Assembly: GCA_002440965.1 (NCBI GenBank)
Contig: DJWJ01000031.1
Location: 6,348 to 70,347 of the forward strand
Reading direction: 5' to 3'
Source of the DNA: Candidatus Omnitrophica bacterium UBA6233
GTDB taxonomy: Bacteria > Omnitrophota > Gorgyraeia > Gygaellales > Profunditerraquicolaceae
Length of the DNA stretch: 64,000 nt
Of the stretch, positions 1 through 4,874 are shown piece after piece; the first letter of the stretch is position 1; every line of letters starts with the position of its first letter. Below the pieces are notes generated by a model. It was not told the DNA's origin. It saw only the letters and a list, made by a program, of their open reading frames with translations, and ran no database searches. Both the position numbers and the translations under genes were made by a program.

Positions 1-79
1 GATGATACGATAAAAGTCAAATAAAGTTGGTGAAATGCTCTGGATTATCGGTATTATGACCATAGTCTGGAGTAGATAG

Positions 80-248
80 GTTATAGGTTGCATTCGCTTG
101 TTGGGGCTTGACCCCGTTAAGGAGATTAACTTTAGCACCTATAATCGAATAGTCACCATAGGGCTTGACCCTGAATAGGAGAATGGTGTTCACCGACTCA
201 TAATTCTACTCCGAGACGAGGCAGGTAACATAACAAGGGGAGGGAGTT
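80..248 (+). ncRNA. Putative IS110 bridge/seek-type ncRNA in the non-coding left end (speculative)
   Basis: About 170-nt non-coding left end upstream of the recombinase gene. Contains two 22-nt imperfect direct repeats (104-125, 161-182). Segment 199-215 is reverse-complementary to the element's right end (GGAGTAGAATTAT at 1288-1300). Confidence 0.25.
104..182. repeat. Two 22-nt imperfect direct repeats GGGCTTGACCC(C/T)G..A(A/T)AGGAGA
   Basis: Read directly from sequence: 104-125 and 161-182 are 19/22 identical. Confidence 0.6.
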
Positions 249-1274
249 ATGGGGAGAATGATCGGGGTGGATTTACACAAGAATAGCTTTACCATCTGCA
301 GCTACAAGTCTGAAGATGACTATAAGCTAAAGACGCATAGAGTGAGCCCGAAGGGAATTGAGGCGTTTAAGGCAAGTCTCACCAGGTATGACGAATTAGC
401 AGTAGAATCAACCGGTAACACAGCATTCTTTGTAAGAGAAGTAGAATCGAAAGTAAAGCGGATTAGAATCGTTAACCCGATACAGTTTAAGGTTATCTCA
501 AGCTCGGTAAAGAAAACAGATGAAGCAGACGCTTTGACCATAGCGCGGTTTTTAAGCAAGGATATGATACCTGAGGTAAGGATGCGCACAAAAGAACAGT
601 CGCAGATAGCGTCACTGATTGGCACCAGGGACAAATTCGTGAAGCTGCGCACGGCGCTGAAGAACAAGATACATAATATTCTAAATGCTAACGGGATCGT
701 AACTAAGCCTGAAATGTTTACTTCAGAGAAGGGCTTCGAGAAGATAGCGGCTATTGAATTGGAAAGTTCTTATCGGTTTGAAGTTGATCTGATCGTTGGC
801 CAGATACGGAATTTGAATGAGGCGGTGGATAAGATTAATGATGAGCTTAAAGCCAGGGGCCAGAATATCGATGGCCATAAGAACCTTACCAGCATCAAAG
901 GCATCAGCGATATCGGCGCTACGATATTCCTGAATACCATTGGGGATATTAACGATTTTAAGAGCGATAAACAATTAGCAGCATACTTTGGCATAGTGCC
1001 GCGGGTATATGTGTCGAATAATACAGCGCACTATGGACGCATTACCAAAATGGGTAATAAGATTGCCAGGACTGCTTTGGTGCAGTCAACGTTGGTTGCG
1101 ATAAGGTATAGCCCGTATTTAAGGCGTTTTTACGATAAGCTTAAAACTAAGAAAGGCAGTGGTAAGGCGATTATTGCTACTTCTCGTAAGATGTTAGGGA
1201 TAATTTACAATACTTTAAAGAATAACTGGATATTTGAAGATTTTACACAATTTAAGTTAGTAGGGTGTGTATAG
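249..1274 (+). CDS. IS110-family DEDD transposase/recombinase
   Basis: N-terminal MIGVDLHKNSF... is the typical IS110/IS116/IS902 RuvC-like N-terminus. C-terminal Tnp domain (GIG...ATIF..IGD). 341 aa. GGGGAGGG RBS upstream. Confidence 0.8.
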   Translation: MGRMIGVDLHKNSFTICSYKSEDDYKLKTHRVSPKGIEAFKASLTRYDELAVESTGNTAFFVREVESKVKRIRIVNPIQFKVISSSVKKTDEADALTIARFLSKDMIPEVRMRTKEQSQIASLIGTRDKFVKLRTALKNKIHNILNANGIVTKPEMFTSEKGFEKIAAIELESSYRFEVDLIVGQIRNLNEAVDKINDELKARGQNIDGHKNLTSIKGISDIGATIFLNTIGDINDFKSDKQLAAYFGIVPRVYVSNNTAHYGRITKMGNKIARTALVQSTLVAIRYSPYLRRFYDKLKTKKGSGKAIIATSRKMLGIIYNTLKNNWIFEDFTQFKLVGCV

Positions 1275-1326
1275 GTGCGCATACTGGAGTAGAATTATTT
1301 GACTTTTAACATAGGAGGCGAAGGCT

Positions 1327-1881
1327 ATGGCATATCGAAGCGGAACATACGTTGCTTTTTATGCAGAAGGTAAAACTGAACCAGACGAAACAGATATGAA
1401 ATACTATAATTTACTGCAAGCTTGGGATAAGAATAAGGCTTTTGATTTCTCTTTTGTTAATAGTCATGAAAAAGCTAGCGCCGTAAGAGATACGAGCAAA
1501 AAGATTACATTGGAAAATACCTTGAAAGAGCGGTTAAGAAACTCAAAAAATATGATTTTAGTTATTGGTAAGACAACGAGGTTAGATAGGGACTGGGTTC
1601 CGATGGAGATAGAATATGCGGTAGAAAATTGTAAAATTACCATTATTGCAGCTTATCCAGGATACTTAAATATCCGGGCTCCTCAGCAACTTTCTTTGTT
1701 ATGGCCTACTGCGCTTAAGGAACGAATCGAAAATAATACTGCTCATGTGATCCACATTCCGTTTAGAGAGAAGCCGATTATTGATGCAATTTCGCAATTT
1801 GACTATAACAAATTCCCAAATGGTGGCGGGCTAGGGCATTATAATGATGATGCCTACAGGAGCTGGGGGTTGTTAACCTGA
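1327..1881 (+). CDS. TIR-like domain protein (DUF1863/MTH538 family, ThsB-like)
   Basis: YVAF N-terminal strand, and DWVPMEIEYA with a conserved Glu in the catalytic position of TIR/ThsB-like NADases. 184 aa. AGGAGG RBS. Confidence 0.55.
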   Translation: MAYRSGTYVAFYAEGKTEPDETDMKYYNLLQAWDKNKAFDFSFVNSHEKASAVRDTSKKITLENTLKERLRNSKNMILVIGKTTRLDRDWVPMEIEYAVENCKITIIAAYPGYLNIRAPQQLSLLWPTALKERIENNTAHVIHIPFREKPIIDAISQFDYNKFPNGGGLGHYNDDAYRSWGLLT

Positions 1882-1997
1882 GGACAGTAAAGTTAAGTAA
1901 TATAGATTTACTGTCCCTAAGTTAGTTAATTATTAAGGCGGTATAAAATGGGTACTGATGGCAAAAAATAGTTACTCTGATTCAAGAATTTCATAAG

Positions 1998-2873
1998 TTG
2001 CCCGAGCATGCTCTTTATAAGTCACTAACCGGTTTTAACATTTCTCACTATATATTTAATAAAAACTATTCAGAGCTTCTAAAAATTATAGAATTTATAA
2101 CTAATAACCCAGAGTCTGAATGCTTAATGGACATACGAAATCGCGATCAATTAAATAAGATATTCGAGGAGGTAATTAGATTAATTCACAATTTTGTAGC
2201 ATCAGCAATATCATTAGTTGATCACACAAGAAACATATATAAAAAATTATATAGTTCCAACGGGGAATTTCCTGATTATCAAGACCGGATTAATGTTGAG
2301 TTTGCTAGCGATCCGCTAGTTCAGTTTGTCCACTGTCTCCGCCAATATTGCCAGCATTATCGAGCACCGGATATTTCATTACAGGTTTCTTTTACCGGTG
2401 GAAAAATGAAAAAGACAGTAAATTTACTAAAAGAAGATTTAAGAATATTTGACTCATGGAATGCAACTGCAATAAAGTATCTAGATTCAATTAAAGAGCG
2501 TGTAGATGTATATGAATTAATAACCATATATCATAAAAAAGTACTAGATTTTCATGTTTGGTTTAACTCCAGGCAGAAAGAAATCCATAAAATAGAGTTT
2601 GATTTGTTAAGAAAAAAAGAAGAAGAGCTTTTAACGGCACAATTGGATCATTTTTTAGATACGGCTCTTTCTATCAAAGAAAAATCCAACAGTGGAGAAG
2701 TAGACATATTTTACGGTATTTTTAATTCCAGAGATTATAAGGAATTAAGCGGTATGCCTATGAATGAACCAAAGCGATGTGCAAGAGCGATTGAATTAAT
2801 CGAAATGCACCTTCCTGTTTCTGATAACATAAAAAAGAAAATAAATGCTTGGTATAAAAAACAAAGCCAATAA
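1998..2873 (+). CDS. Hypothetical protein (predicted mostly alpha-helical), TTG start or internal ATG at 2127
   Basis: 291-aa ORF in a very AT-rich segment with no recognisable motifs. Tightly packed with flanking genes. Confidence 0.45.
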   Translation: MPEHALYKSLTGFNISHYIFNKNYSELLKIIEFITNNPESECLMDIRNRDQLNKIFEEVIRLIHNFVASAISLVDHTRNIYKKLYSSNGEFPDYQDRINVEFASDPLVQFVHCLRQYCQHYRAPDISLQVSFTGGKMKKTVNLLKEDLRIFDSWNATAIKYLDSIKERVDVYELITIYHKKVLDFHVWFNSRQKEIHKIEFDLLRKKEEELLTAQLDHFLDTALSIKEKSNSGEVDIFYGIFNSRDYKELSGMPMNEPKRCARAIELIEMHLPVSDNIKKKINAWYKKQSQ

Positions 2874-2895
2874 AACTACAGGGAAGGAGAATACT

Positions 2896-3531
2896 ATGAG
2901 AGCTATTATTGCGATTCATGGAATCAGGAGCAATAAAAAGGATAATTGGATTTACAGTTTTTGTGACTTTGCTAAGGCCGATCTTCGTTTTCAAGGAGAT
3001 GTTGTCCTGCCTTATTATTACGGATTTTTACCTGCTATAGATAGTGTTAATGGATTTGATCGACTTAGGTTTATTCGCGGATTTATGAAGTTTTTACGAG
3101 GTGTTAAAAGTGATTATCCACAAGCAGACCTTAATATTGTTGCGCATAGCTATGGTACAGAAATAAGTTTTCAGGCCATAAAAAGAAGTGGGGAAGACAG
3201 TGTGAAAAAGGGGCCGATTTTGGTTAATAAGCTTATCCTAGCGGGTAGCATTGTTTCTGCTCATAGAGAGATTCCTTACGCTGATACACTTCGAGCAGGA
3301 AAGATTAAAGAAATGCATTGTTACTGTAGCTATGAAGATGAGGTTTGCCGATATAATCCTTTCGGGCATTCAGGTTGCTTTGGATTCCTGAAGCACGTAC
3401 ATGATCCTGTTTGTTATCCAAAACCTTTTGATGATTTAAATATTTTTAATCATCAGACAAATACTCTGGAGCATTGTGATTATTTTACAAAGCAATATGA
3501 ACAAAAATGGCTTGATATCATTGCTAAATAG
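2896..3531 (+). CDS. Small alpha/beta-hydrolase-fold protein (putative esterase/lipase-like)
   Basis: AIHGIRS N-terminal strand, nucleophile elbow VAHSYG (GxSxG-like), later Asp/His candidates. GGAGAA RBS before ATG 2896. The track ORF begins earlier at 2845 in frame. Confidence 0.5.
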   Translation: MRAIIAIHGIRSNKKDNWIYSFCDFAKADLRFQGDVVLPYYYGFLPAIDSVNGFDRLRFIRGFMKFLRGVKSDYPQADLNIVAHSYGTEISFQAIKRSGEDSVKKGPILVNKLILAGSIVSAHREIPYADTLRAGKIKEMHCYCSYEDEVCRYNPFGHSGCFGFLKHVHDPVCYPKPFDDLNIFNHQTNTLEHCDYFTKQYEQKWLDIIAK

Positions 3532-3575
3532 GAAAAAGGTGCCAATTCATTACAATAACATAAAGGAGTTTAATA

Positions 3576-4874
3576 ATGCCTAAAAAGAAAGGGTTAGCAA
3601 AAGAAATATTGAAAAGTAATTTACGAAATAAAAAAGTATATTATTATGTTGATTCCGAATCTGGCATTAAAATAAAAAGTAGGGAAGTTTTTAAAACTTC
3701 TTCAAAAACGATTCAGTTTCCCTTTTGGCCTAACGATGGAAAACCCAAGTATCCCTCGATAAGAAAAGTAATTTGTGAAGGTCTGCCTGAGCCTCTTCCT
3801 AGGGGTTTTTATAAATCTTATACAAAAGGGTATGGTTTTACAAGAGAGTTCAACCCTATAATTTACTACTTAAATAACTCCTTTCCCCAAATAACAACAG
3901 TTATTGTATCGAAAAGTGCTAAAAGTCGCTTCGTTGATAATAGAAAAGTTATTTTTAATCTTAAGGATTTTGAGAATGCCATTCCTCAGGTAGCCTTTAT
4001 GTTGGGCAATCATAGAGAACAAAAGGATTGTTTAGCAAATGACATTCTTTCAAAAATGTTTCCAGGAAAATTTACAGCTAAAGCTACAAAATATCAAAAA
4101 GGGCAATTAAATGCTTTTATCTCGCAGCATTCACTAAAACCAGACGAGCTCTCGAGTGAAGATGTCAAAAGTATTTCCTCTCTTTTTGCCTCGTTACCCT
4201 CAACTCATGAATTCATAAAAAAGAAAGGCATACTATCTACTAAAGAATCTGTCGACAGAATTTTTATTGAAGATATTCTGCAGAGATTTAATGATCTGTA
4301 TTCCCAAAAAACAGAAAGTCAAACCCTGGAGAATAAATGGCAGGAATTTTTTAAAGATAATATTTTGTATTTTAACTTTGGATATGTTGATTTTTTTGAA
4401 AAAAGTAGAATACAGGGTGATATTTCTACTGAAATTCCCGATTTTACAATACTAAATATTTATGGATATTTAGATGTATTCGAAATAAAAACGCATTTGA
4501 CAAAGCTTTTAAGTTTTGATTCCCAAAGAAAAAATTTCTATTGGACCTCAGAAGCAAGTAGGGCAATTTCACAAGCAGAAAATTACATAGATGCTATTAC
4601 AAAAGAAGAGTTAAAAATATGCAAAAACATATTGGATGAATATAGCTATAATATTAATGCAGTTCGTCCAAAAGTTTATATCATTGCAAGCTCAAGAGAC
4701 AAGTTAGCTGGAAGCAAGACTTTAAAATACCAAGGTAAACTTAAGAGGAAACTAAATAATGATTTTAGGCGGTTAAATAATTCGCTGAAAAACATTACTT
4801 TTATTCTTTATGATGAACTATTAGAAGTATTTCAAAATACACTAAAAAGGTTGCAATTAAAGAATGCAGAATAA
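3576..4874 (+). CDS. Shedu-like (DUF4263) PD-(D/E)xK nuclease-domain protein
   Basis: C-terminal PDFTIL...DVFEIKTH...QAENYID...KVYIIASSRD fits the D-(E)xK-Q-Y motif and the end of the DUF4263 nuclease. N-terminal 270 aa of unknown function. Confidence 0.45.
   Translation: MPKKKGLAKEILKSNLRNKKVYYYVDSESGIKIKSREVFKTSSKTIQFPFWPNDGKPKYPSIRKVICEGLPEPLPRGFYKSYTKGYGFTREFNPIIYYLNNSFPQITTVIVSKSAKSRFVDNRKVIFNLKDFENAIPQVAFMLGNHREQKDCLANDILSKMFPGKFTAKATKYQKGQLNAFISQHSLKPDELSSEDVKSISSLFASLPSTHEFIKKKGILSTKESVDRIFIEDILQRFNDLYSQKTESQTLENKWQEFFKDNILYFNFGYVDFFEKSRIQGDISTEIPDFTILNIYGYLDVFEIKTHLTKLLSFDSQRKNFYWTSEASRAISQAENYIDAITKEELKICKNILDEYSYNINAVRPKVYIIASSRDKLAGSKTLKYQGKLKRKLNNDFRRLNNSLKNITFILYDELLEVFQNTLKRLQLKNAE

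What the first reader, a model, noticed from the sequence alone, without database searches (positions are those of the whole stretch)
1..1300. IS110-family element whose upstream non-coding end looks like a bridge-RNA locus
The recombinase gene (249-1274) is preceded by about 170 nt of structured non-coding DNA. This contains two 22-nt near-identical repeats (104-125, 161-182). It also has a 13-17-nt segment (199-215) that is the reverse complement of the element's right end (GGAGTAGAATTAT at 1288-1300), and CTGGAGTAGA recurs in direct orientation at 67-76. This arrangement would fit an IS110 bridge-RNA left end: a non-coding end upstream of the recombinase that carries a guide complementary to the donor end. 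The window start may truncate the left flank.
Basis: partly seen in the sequence, partly recalled or inferred. Interest (0 to 1): 0.55.

Follow-up and report, generated by a model that had tools for sequence, protein, structure and literature searches.

The report
Bridge-RNA insertion element targeting ribosome-binding sites
This is a complete 1.3-kb IS110-family mobile element whose upstream non-coding end encodes a guide ("bridge") RNA that steers insertion into the ribosome-binding sites of genes; the kind is known, but this widespread clade orders its guides differently from the model element IS621 and carries an extra, unexplained match between the RNA's tail and the element's right end.

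Summary
Several details are wrong.

- **Boundaries.** An empty site and left-flank contigs place the element at window 2-1317, not ending at 1300.
- **Target.** It sits in the Shine-Dalgarno TAAGGAG of a ThsB-TIR gene, and its right end regenerates AGGAG for that gene.
- **RNA structure.** About 120 related loci show a covarying RNA at about 19-215: 97% of cells paired and 20/35 pairs compensatory.
- **The two 22-nt repeats.** They are the paralogous target- and donor-binding modules.
- **Target guide.** The nucleotide before AAGGAG in the first module matches the host flank in 69/73 independent insertions.
- **Donor guide.** A 4-5-nt segment 5' of the second hairpin covaries with the first bases of the left end.
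- **Guide order.** The top-strand match lies 5' and the bottom-strand match 3'. This is the reverse of IS621 and matches IS1111-type seekRNAs, although the RNA is upstream of the recombinase.
- **The 200-212 / 1286-1298 complementarity.** It is real, conserved and covarying. It is a subterminal "RE box", not the donor end or the canonical donor guide, and its function is open.

Verdict: a new variant of a known kind, of moderate interest.

The parts
1..1 (+). Last base (G) of the host target/core GGAG at the left junction. The rest of the left flank lies outside the window.
   Evidence: L036 carries the same locus with its flank...AAAATAATAAGGAG|ATGATACG. The empty sites L123 and L126 read ...AATAATAAGGAG|GCGAAGGCTATG.
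2..1317 (+). The complete insertion element, 1316 bp when one copy of the shared AGGAG is counted.
   Evidence: Occupied site compared with empty site. Homologous ends in about 90 loci.
2..248 (+). Left non-coding end (LE).
   Evidence: Conserved across recombinases that are only 49-75% identical.
3..11 (+). Extended -10 element, TGaTACGAT, of the promoter formed only when the right end is joined to the left end.
   Evidence: With TTGACT at 1299-1304 the spacer is exactly 17 nt. The circle junction scores better than the integrated junction in 46/49 elements. The function is inferred.
11..24 (+). Left subterminal inverted repeat, TAAAAGTCAAATAA.
   Evidence: A perfect 14-nt complement of 1295-1308 (I2).
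19..215 (+). Predicted bridge RNA. The start is inferred from the -10 element and the 3' end is approximate.
   Evidence: Structure covariation: 97.1% of cells paired, 20/35 pairs compensatory, 0/500 shuffles reach the observed value. Many G-U pairs fix the strand as +.
26..34 (+). Helix P1a, 5' strand. It pairs with 189-197.
   Evidence: 8 of 9 pairs show compensatory changes, 0/500 shuffles. Part of the minimum-free-energy fold.
36..74 (+). 5' stem-loop (SL0). Its 3' strand overlaps the GGAG of P1.
   Evidence: Minimum-free-energy fold. By eye, the two strands change together in homologues in the alignment. Not scored formally.
69..76 (+). Helix P1, 5' strand (GGAGUAGA). It pairs with 205-212.
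   Evidence: 5 of 8 pairs compensatory, for example Ruegeria GAGGCGGA/UCCGCCUC. P1 crosses P1a, so the two form either a pseudoknot or alternative folds.
79..146 (+). Target-binding arm. Helix P2 (79-87/138-146) encloses hairpin H1 (102-116) and its flanking loop strands.
   Evidence: P2: 6 of 9 pairs compensatory. H1: 3 of 5.
93..97 (+). Possible right-target guide, UUCGC, complementary to the right flank GCGAA at 1318-1322.
   Evidence: Weak. The clade-wide best run is 3.85 against 3.48 +/- 0.10 in permutations, with no consistent register.
118..126 (+). Left-target guide, UAAGGAG (118-124, same sense as the target TAAGGAG), followed by AU (125-126), which equals the first two bases of the LE. 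It lies inside the first 22-nt repeat.
   Evidence: The nucleotide at -7 matches the host flank in 69/73 unique insertions (permutation mean 34.4, maximum 47 of 20,000). 23/24 match when the RNA base is not A. The +1/+2 bases equal RD1-2 in 75/75.
152..155 (+). Right-donor guide, GUCA, complementary to LE bases 3-6 (TGAT).
   Evidence: Covaries across the clade: TGAT/GUCA, TGGC/GCCA, TGGT/ACCA, TGTT/GACA, TGAG/CUCA, AGGTT/AACCU.
154..188 (+). Donor-binding arm. Helix P3 (154-158/184-188) encloses hairpin H2 (159-173) and a 10-nt 3' bulge.
   Evidence: H2: 4 of 5 pairs compensatory. P3: 93% of cells paired with little variation.
175..182 (+). Left-donor guide, AUAGGAGA, same sense as the joined donor ATAGGAG|A (1311-1317 plus position 2). 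It lies inside the second 22-nt repeat.
   Evidence: Direct sequence identity. It is invariant in all loci, so no covariation test is possible.
198..214 (+). 3' tail of the RNA. 205-212 is the P1 3' strand, and 200-212 is complementary to the RE box.
   Evidence: Single-stranded in the minimum-free-energy fold. Tracks the RE box better than it tracks the P1 5' strand.
249..1274 (+). Recombinase gene, 341 aa: a DEDD RuvC-like domain plus a C-terminal domain carrying the conserved serine (GIVPRVYVSN).
   Evidence: Pfam, NCBIfam, alignment to IS621.
1286..1298 (+). RE box, GGAGTAGAATTAT. It is subterminal, 19 nt from the end, and complementary to RNA 200-212.
   Evidence: Present in 49 distinct elements. 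It equals the reverse complement of the tail at variable positions (46-47 of 49) where the P1 5' strand does not (30 of 46). Mean run 9.05 against a permutation mean of 7.18 +/- 0.18. Absent in IS621.
1295..1308 (+). Right subterminal inverted repeat, TTATTTGACTTTTA. It contains the -35 hexamer TTGACT (1299-1304).
1311..1317 (+). Right terminus, ATAGGAG. It supplies the Shine-Dalgarno sequence for the downstream ThsB-TIR gene (ATG at 1327).
   Evidence: The same terminus occurs in nearly all of the roughly 75 parsed right ends. An ATG lies 4-12 nt downstream in 57/73 flanks against 11.8 +/- 3.1 in shuffles. No + strand terminator was found.

Best explanation
Window 2-1317 is an intact, recently mobile element of the IS110 family, belonging to a large uncharacterised clade.

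**The RNA.** The 247-nt left end encodes a bridge (seek) RNA of about 200 nt. It has a 5' stem-loop and two paralogous arms.
- In each arm, the strand 3' of a GGGC/GCCC-type hairpin carries an 8-9-nt segment identical to the top strand of the DNA partner, so it would pair with the bottom strand.
  - In the target arm this is N-AAGGAG-AU.
  - In the donor arm this is AUAGGAG-A.
- The strand 5' of the hairpin carries a short segment complementary to the top strand on the other side of the crossover. GUCA matches the first bases of the left end. A weak match to the right flank sits in the target arm.

**The reaction.** The recombinase-RNA complex would recombine the excised circle, whose junction reads ...ATAGGAG|ATGATA..., with a host Shine-Dalgarno sequence xAAGGAG. 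Crossover would fall within the shared (A)GGAG.

**The outcome.**
- The element lands co-directionally just upstream of a start codon.
- Its right end restores AGGAG at the original spacing.
- No terminator follows, so the downstream gene can still be translated.
- Joining the two ends would create a sigma-70 promoter, TTGACT-17-TGnTACGAT, that drives the RNA and the recombinase.

**Shown:** boundaries, target, RNA structure covariation, and guide-target and guide-donor covariation.
**Inferred:** transcription start, RNA-protein binding, strand chemistry, promoter activity, and non-polarity on the downstream gene.
For: **Boundaries and target**
- The empty site (L123, L126) compared with the occupied site (L036) gives exact boundaries and the target TAAGGAG|GCGAAGGCTATG.
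- Eight Ruegeria copies have different flanks, all of the form xAAGGAG|IS|...ATG.
- Nearly all of the roughly 75 parsed right ends read ATAGGAG.
- 57/73 right flanks have an ATG 4-12 nt downstream, against 11.8 +/- 3.1 in shuffles.

**RNA structure**
- 97.1% of cells paired, 20/35 pairs compensatory, 0/500 shuffles reach the observed value, and slid controls give 26-49%.
- P1a has 8/9 compensatory pairs.

**Guides**
- Target guide: 69/73 concordance at -7, permutation maximum 47 of 20,000. Variant Shine-Dalgarno targets AATGGAG (L007) and AAAGAG (L076) are mirrored in the RNA.
- Donor guide: six or more distinct compensatory RD/RNA combinations.

**Promoter and recombinase**
- The junction promoter is conserved; the circle scores above the integrated form in 46/49.
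- Recombinase domains are present.

**Established mechanism in the family:** Durrant 2024 (PMC11208160), Siddiquee 2024 (PMC11187229).
Against: - There is no expression, binding or recombination data for this clade.
- The right-target guide is statistically weak and has no fixed register.
- The left-donor guide is invariant, so it rests on identity alone.
- P1 and P1a cross. The nested-only folding algorithm can therefore keep only one of them, and forcing P1 costs about 10 kcal/mol.
- Covariation between RNA and donor could be inflated by shared ancestry, because both lie in the same element. The target-flank concordance is not affected by this.
Confidence: 0.85

Rival explanations
1. This would be a canonical IS621-type bridge RNA in which 199-215 is the donor guide pairing with the element's right end at 1288-1300, with 67-76 and 1284-1293 marking the boundaries.
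For: The 13-nt complementarity is real and conserved. The RNA is in the left end, as in IS621.
Against: - The true end is 1317.
- 1286-1298 lies 19 nt inside it.
- The segments matching the recombining junction are 175-182 (identity only) and 152-155 (covariation).
- The guide order is the reverse of IS621, as verified on a real IS621 copy.
- 67-76 is an RNA helix strand.
Confidence: 0.04
2. The RE box acts as RNA. In transcripts that contain it, it pairs with the bridge RNA's 3' tail. Such transcripts are the recombinase mRNA 3' UTR, or RNA that reads round the terminator-less circle across the RE-LE junction. The pairing would replace the weaker P1 and give a fully nested fold. It would act as a processing signal or a conformational switch that reports whether the ends are joined.
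For: - The RE+LE transcript folds into a nested structure with a 10-bp RE box:tail helix, the subterminal-repeat hairpin and P1a, at -90.1 kcal/mol.
- The tail is single-stranded in the RNA folded alone.
- The tail keeps Watson-Crick complementarity to the box where its pairing to the P1 5' strand is only G-U.
- There is no terminator on the + strand.
Against: - The predicted junction promoter starts downstream of the box, so the box enters the RNA only on read-through.
- Ruegeria and Francisella relatives lack a clear box.
- There is no experimental support.
Confidence: 0.3
3. The RE box acts as DNA. The RNA tail, and possibly the same-sense P1 5' strand, would pair with the two strands of the subterminal box. 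This would form a third recognition module that extends donor (right-end) recognition or represses the junction promoter.
For: - In the larger subclade the box, GAAGTAGACA, contains the -35 hexamer TAGACA. In the window it directly abuts the -35.
- Both a same-sense and a complementary RNA segment exist, as in the two binding loops.
Against: - The box is 14-24 nt from the crossover, and the distance differs between subclades.
- No such contact is known in the IS621 structures.
- Strand invasion away from the active sites is mechanistically unsupported.
- Some relatives lack the box.
Confidence: 0.3
4. The upstream region is only a 5' UTR or regulatory leader of the recombinase mRNA and has no guide function.
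For: It lies between a promoter and the start codon. Structured leaders are common.
Against: A leader cannot explain why one RNA nucleotide predicts the host base 7 nt left of each independent insertion (69/73). Nor can it explain why variant SD targets are mirrored in the loop.
Confidence: 0.02

Closest known systems
IS621 / IS110-group bridge RNA (Durrant et al. 2024, PMC11208160; Hiraizumi et al. 2024, PMC11208158)
   Same: - A DEDD recombinase with a conserved C-terminal serine.
- The RNA is encoded in a long left end, downstream of a promoter rebuilt at the circle junction.
- A 5' stem-loop is followed by two stem-loops, each carrying one guide for each DNA strand.
- The first loop reads the target and the second reads the donor.
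- The second loop is the more conserved.
   Different: - The guide order within each loop is reversed. IS621 has the same-sense guide 5' and the complementary guide 3' (checked on L129).
- Target and donor share 5 nt (AGGAG) rather than a CT dinucleotide.
- The subterminal inverted repeats are 14 bp rather than 2-3 bp.
- There are crossing helices, P1 and P1a.
- An RE box complementary to the RNA tail is present here and absent in IS621.
- The proteins are only 23% identical.
IS1111-family seekRNA / bridge RNA (Siddiquee et al. 2024, PMC11187229), including the reported exception ISMtsp17 with an upstream non-coding region
   Same: - The top-strand match lies 5' of the bottom-strand match.
- The subterminal inverted repeats fall in the 7-17-bp range.
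- The recombinase length of 341 aa lies within 330-350 aa.
- Similarity to IS5075 is slightly higher (29%, 76 bits) than to IS621 (23%, 62 bits).
   Different: - The long non-coding region is upstream of the recombinase, and the right end is only 43 nt.
- The motif reads GIVPxxxxSN rather than GL-P----S(T)G.
- Phylogenetic placement is unresolved, because IS5075 against IS621 is itself 27% and 63 bits.
IS900/IS901/IS902/IS116-type IS110-family elements of actinobacteria, reported to insert between the RBS and start codon
   Same: They belong to the IS110 family, and their orientation-specific insertion is tied to a Shine-Dalgarno-like motif next to a start codon.
   Different: As I recall, those elements are larger (about 1.45 kb, recombinase about 400 aa) and insert with the recombinase gene opposite to the target gene. 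Here the recombinase is co-directional and the right end replaces the SD. Homology and RNA were not compared.

Membership tests
IS110 family (ISfinder sense; NCBIfam NF033542 'IS110 family RNA-guided transposase') | [quoted passage not shown] | tested here: met
   PF01548 E=2.5e-14 and PF02371 E=9.5e-22. NF033542 scores 223.9 bits against a cut-off of 140.
IS110 family (ISfinder sense; NCBIfam NF033542 'IS110 family RNA-guided transposase') | Conserved catalytic serine in the G..P....S(G) motif | tested here: met
   GIVPRVYVSN aligns with IS621 GLTPRRYESG. The serine is present, but the following residue is N, not G.
IS110 family (ISfinder sense; NCBIfam NF033542 'IS110 family RNA-guided transposase') | Site-specific insertion without terminal inverted repeats or a conventional target duplication; a short core is shared by donor and target | tested here: met
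   Empty site compared with occupied site. AGGAG is present at both junctions and once in the empty site.
Bridge RNA, IS621 type | Structured ncRNA in the long left end, with a 5' stem-loop and two guide-bearing stem-loops | tested here: met
Bridge RNA, IS621 type | A loop segment covaries with or matches the host target | tested here: met
   69/73 concordance at -7, and 64/73 flanks match 7/7.
Bridge RNA, IS621 type | A loop segment covaries with or matches the donor (the element's ends) | tested here: met
   The right-donor guide covaries with LE bases 2-5. The left-donor guide is identical to the right terminus but invariant.
Bridge RNA, IS621 type | The second guide of the target loop pairs with the right flank | tested here: inconclusive
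   Best run 3.85 against 3.48 +/- 0.10, with no fixed register.
Bridge RNA, IS621 type | [quoted passage not shown] | tested here: not met
   The order is reversed here. The IS621 order was confirmed on L129 and in the paper's text.
Bridge RNA, IS621 type | The RNA is expressed and binds its recombinase | not testable with these tools
   This needs RNA-seq and binding assays.
Bridge RNA, IS621 type | A match to a published covariance model | not testable with these tools
   Rfam 15 gives no hit to the window and none to the IS621 bridge RNA itself. The published models are not available here.
IS1111 group / seekRNA | Subterminal inverted repeats of 7-17 bp | tested here: met
   11-24 and 1295-1308 are 14/14 complementary.
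IS1111 group / seekRNA | The long non-coding region (the RNA gene) lies downstream of the recombinase | tested here: not met
   The LE is 247 nt and the RE is 43 nt.
IS1111 group / seekRNA | The top-strand match lies 5' of the bottom-strand match in the RNA | tested here: met
   compared with the paper's description.
IS1111 group / seekRNA | The recombinase clusters with IS1111-type proteins | tested here: inconclusive
   29%/76 bits to IS5075, 23%/62 bits to IS621, and 27%/63 bits between IS5075 and IS621. NF033542 covers all three.

The most novel reading that the evidence does not exclude
This clade may represent a distinct bridge-RNA architecture with three features.
1. The RNA is encoded in the left end but its guide order is of the IS1111 type.
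2. It is naturally programmed to Shine-Dalgarno sequences, so the element can sit inside operons and hand its own SD to the downstream gene.
3. It has a third, co-evolving pairing module. This is the RNA's 3' tail against a subterminal right-end box that overlaps or abuts the -35 of the junction promoter. The module would let the RNA sense or act on the joined RE-LE state, through a circle-specific fold or processing, extended donor recognition, or promoter autoregulation.
Probability: 0.35. Interest if true: 0.7.

Novelty: new variant of a known kind. Interest (0 to 1): 0.5.

Why it matters
Bridge/seek-RNA recombinases are being developed as programmable DNA-insertion tools, and almost all mechanistic work rests on IS621 and close relatives. 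This clade is large: 4,735 homologues at E<=1e-30, found from Omnitrophota to Wolbachia and Ruegeria.

- **A natural reprogramming series.** Single-nucleotide guide changes are matched by the host flank. This is direct field evidence for RNA-guided site choice.
- **A mixed architecture.** The RNA is upstream, as in IS110-type elements, but the guide order and subterminal repeats are IS1111-like. This bears on how the two groups are related.
- **A way to live inside operons.** The element hits the SD and then replaces it.
- **An unexplained module.** The right-end box/tail complementarity is conserved and could reveal how these elements tell the excised from the integrated state, or how they regulate themselves.

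For the window itself, the element is a presence/absence polymorphism inside a TIR/ThsB/Shedu defence island.

Tried and rejected
- **Rfam 15 scans of the window.** No relevant hit. Uninformative, because Rfam also fails to hit the real IS621 bridge RNA.
- **Boundaries from the 10-nt direct repeat (67-76 / 1284-1293).** Rejected by the empty site.
- **A consistent register for right-target guide pairing.** There is only a weak overall excess and no diagonal. The window's UUCGC/GCGAA match is 2-3 nt off the register seen in L057, L108 and L001.
- **Sub-group assignment by sequence.** All of these were non-discriminating:
  - NCBIfam.
  - PDB sequence search, which gave only IS621/ISCro4 at E of about 1e-10.
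  - Plasmid tblastn.
  - Pairwise BLASTP.
- **Source names of homologues.** Only the generic 'IS110 family transposase'.
- **Literature search for Shine-Dalgarno or RBS targeting together with bridge RNA.** None found in the held library. One 2026 preprint on IS110 boundaries could not be read.
- **The handshake idea for the donor loop.** The dinucleotide after GGAG in the donor loop (AA/UU/CA/...) looked, by eye, unrelated to the right-flank bases listed. This was not tabulated.
- **A covariance model of this RNA, to search IS5075 and IS621.** Considered and not run, because the expected yield was low.
Full report
**1. Observation.** The ORF 249-1274 encodes a 341-aa IS110-type recombinase: PF01548 + PF02371 and NF033542 at 224 bits against a cut-off of 140.
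- 104-125 and 161-182 are 18/22 identical.
- CTGGAGTAGA occurs at 67-76 and 1284-1293.
- 200-212 is a perfect complement of GGAGTAGAATTAT, which lies at 1286-1298, 2 nt from the stated coordinates.
- The 13-nt run exceeds shuffles: 13 against 6.2 +/- 1.0.
11-24 is a perfect 14-nt complement of 1295-1308 (I2).

**2. Boundaries and target.**
- The identical recombinase occurs on longer contigs that carry the left flank. L036 reads ...GCAGCAAAATAATAAGGAG|ATGATACG....
- The downstream ThsB-TIR protein also occurs on contigs that lack the element. L123 and L126 read ...AATAATAAGGAG|GCGAAGGCTATGGCA....
- The element is therefore window 2-1317, with AGGAG shared between target and right terminus. The window starts exactly at the left junction.
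- The target is the Shine-Dalgarno (SD) sequence of the 184-aa ThsB-TIR gene (ATG at 1327).

**3. The clade.** Scans returned 35 genome and 80 metagenome loci, 49-88% identical at protein level.
- Eight Ruegeria copies have unrelated flanks of the form xAAGGAG|ATGGGATG...CATCATAGGAG|n(5-8)ATG.
- Nearly all of the roughly 75 parsed right ends read ATAGGAG.
- 57/73 unique right flanks have an ATG 4-12 nt downstream, against 11.8 +/- 3.1 in shuffles.
- The clade thus inserts co-directionally into SD sequences and restores AGGAG for the downstream gene.
- No + strand terminator was found between the LE and the ThsB gene.
- 4,735 homologues score E<=1e-30, mostly on contigs of 1.3-1.6 kb. The identical protein is named as coming from a Candidatus Omnitrophota MAG.

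**4. The RNA.** The left end is conserved far beyond what the protein divergence would predict.
- On 41 non-redundant sequences, RNAalifold and explicit pair counting support these helices:
  - P1, 69-76/205-212.
  - P2, 79-87/138-146.
  - H1, 102-106/112-116.
  - P3, 154-158/184-188.
  - H2, 159-163/169-173.
- Overall, 97.1% of cells are paired and 20/35 pairs have compensatory changes. 0/500 shuffles reach the observed values, and slid controls give 26-49%.
- A further helix, P1a (26-34/189-197), has 8/9 compensatory pairs.
- P1a crosses P1, so the two form either a pseudoknot or alternative folds. The nested minimum-free-energy fold keeps P1a and a long 5' stem-loop (36-74) and leaves the tail 198-216 unpaired. 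Forcing P1 costs about 10 kcal/mol.
- Frequent G-U pairs fix the strand as +.
- The two 22-nt repeats are H1 and H2, each with its 3' loop strand. They are the paralogous target and donor modules.

**5. Guides.**
- **Target loop, 3' side (GU-N-AAGGAG-AU).**
  - The N equals the host base at -7 in 69/73 unique insertions. The permutation mean is 34.4 and the maximum is 47 of 20,000. When the RNA base is not A, 23/24 match.
  - 64/73 flanks match the 7-mer 7/7.
  - Variant targets AATGGAG (L007) and AAAGAG (L076) are mirrored in the RNA.
  - Flanks differ between copies of one element, and the -7 T is present in the empty site. These bases are therefore host DNA, and the concordance reflects RNA-guided site choice.
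  - The two bases after GGAG (AU/AC/AG) equal the first two LE bases in 75/75 loci rather than the right flank. This resembles the handshake guides described for IS621.
- **Donor loop.**
  - AUAGGAGA (175-182) equals the joined donor ATAGGAG|A, but it is invariant.
  - A 4-5-nt segment 5' of H2 (152-155, GUCA) is complementary to LE bases 3-6 and covaries: TGAT/GUCA, TGGC/GCCA, TGGT/ACCA, TGTT/GACA, TGAG/CUCA, AGGTT/AACCU.
- **Right-target guide.** It is only weakly supported.
- **Crossover.** L076 keeps AAAGAG at the left junction and ATAGGAG at the right end. The crossover therefore lies within the last about 3 nt of GGAG.

**6. Promoter.** Joining the right end to the left end gives TTGACT(1299-1304)-17 nt-TGaTACGAT(3-11). 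Equivalent promoters occur across the clade, and the circle form scores above the integrated form in 46/49 elements. This matches the junction promoters described for the family.

**7. The RE box.** The complementarity between the tail and a subterminal right-end box is a clade feature.
- The mean perfect run is 9.05 against 7.18 +/- 0.18 when elements are permuted.
- The box equals the reverse complement of the tail at variable positions in 46-47 of 49 elements. The P1 5' strand does so in only 30 of 46, where it pairs by G-U instead.
- The 3' extension (AATTAT, AATTATTG, AATTTTT, AATC) tracks the box, not P1.
- IS621 shows nothing comparable: a run of 8 against 7.1 +/- 1.1.
- The box lies 14-24 nt from the end. 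In the larger subclade it contains the -35 hexamer TAGACA.
- An RNA reading from the RE across the junction into the LE folds into a fully nested structure closed by box:tail.
- Whether the pairing is RNA-RNA or RNA-DNA cannot be decided here.

**8. Comparison with known systems.**
- On a real IS621 copy (L129), the same-sense guides AUCGGGCCU and ACAGUAUC are 5' of the hairpins and the complementary guides CGUAG and CAAG are 3'. Here the order is reversed.
- Siddiquee et al. report exactly this order (top-strand match 5') for IS1111-type seekRNAs, together with subterminal repeats and proteins of 330-350 aa. In those elements the RNA is downstream, with rare exceptions such as ISMtsp17.
- Protein similarity does not resolve the placement: 29% to IS5075, 23% to IS621, and 27% between those two.
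- The element is a member of the IS110 family. It works like a bridge/seek-RNA system but fits neither described sub-architecture fully.

**9. Verdict.** It is a new variant of a known kind and of moderate interest. Its most novel component, the RE box/tail module, remains unexplained.

Noticed in passing
window 1327-4874; upstream genes in L036 8-2746: The element sits in a defence island. Gene order: TIR_2 (349 aa), a 398-aa unknown, ThsB_TIR (142 aa), then the IS, then ThsB_TIR (184 aa, 1327-1881), a 291-aa unknown (1998-2873), an alpha/beta-hydrolase-like protein (228 aa, 2845-3531; Pfam matches just below the curated cut-offs) and Shedu SduA_C (432 aa, 3576-4874). The insertion is a presence/absence polymorphism between otherwise identical loci (L123 and L126 lack it).
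   Followed up: partly
window 2-13: Immediately after the captured host SD, the LE opens with a mini-ORF, AUG AUA CGA UAA. The ATGGTATG subclade has a similar mini-ORF, ATG AAT GAA GCT TGA. It overlaps the -10 element. Its possible role in disposing of ribosomes that load on the orphaned host SD was not tested.
   Followed up: no
L074 and L084, right flank directly after the IS end: The flank repeats the last ~15-19 nt of the right end (L074 TAGACATTCATCATAGGAG, L084 ACATTCATCATAGGAG). This could be a right-end remnant or a scar from an earlier event. The right terminus ATAGGAG differs from a target only at -6.
   Followed up: no
window 17-193, minus strand: A 58-aa ORF, called as a gene in one JGI record (L037), lies entirely antisense to the covarying RNA. 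It is probably a spurious call.
   Followed up: partly
L129 1470-1570: This IS621 copy has a partial tandem duplication of its left-end start. CCTTGTATTATCCCTCCAGTGCAGAG...GCCGTATCGGG occurs twice.
   Followed up: no
L006, L014, L017, L021 (Wolbachia endosymbiont of Cantharis cryptica): Several copies of a 49%-identical relative are present. They have a large insertion in the H1 loop, and some copies are truncated (L014 and L017 diverge inside or after the RNA). In the L006/L021 copy comparison, sequence identity runs past the stop codon and stops at a point with no ATAGGAG beside it, although a later pattern scan did find CAATCATAGGAG downstream of the L006 gene. The right end of these copies is therefore unresolved.
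   Followed up: no
L019 right end: One Ruegeria copy has CATCAAAGGAG instead of CATCATAGGAG at its right terminus, so position -6 carries the target-like A. This could be a mutation or a trace of heteroduplex repair near the crossover.
   Followed up: no
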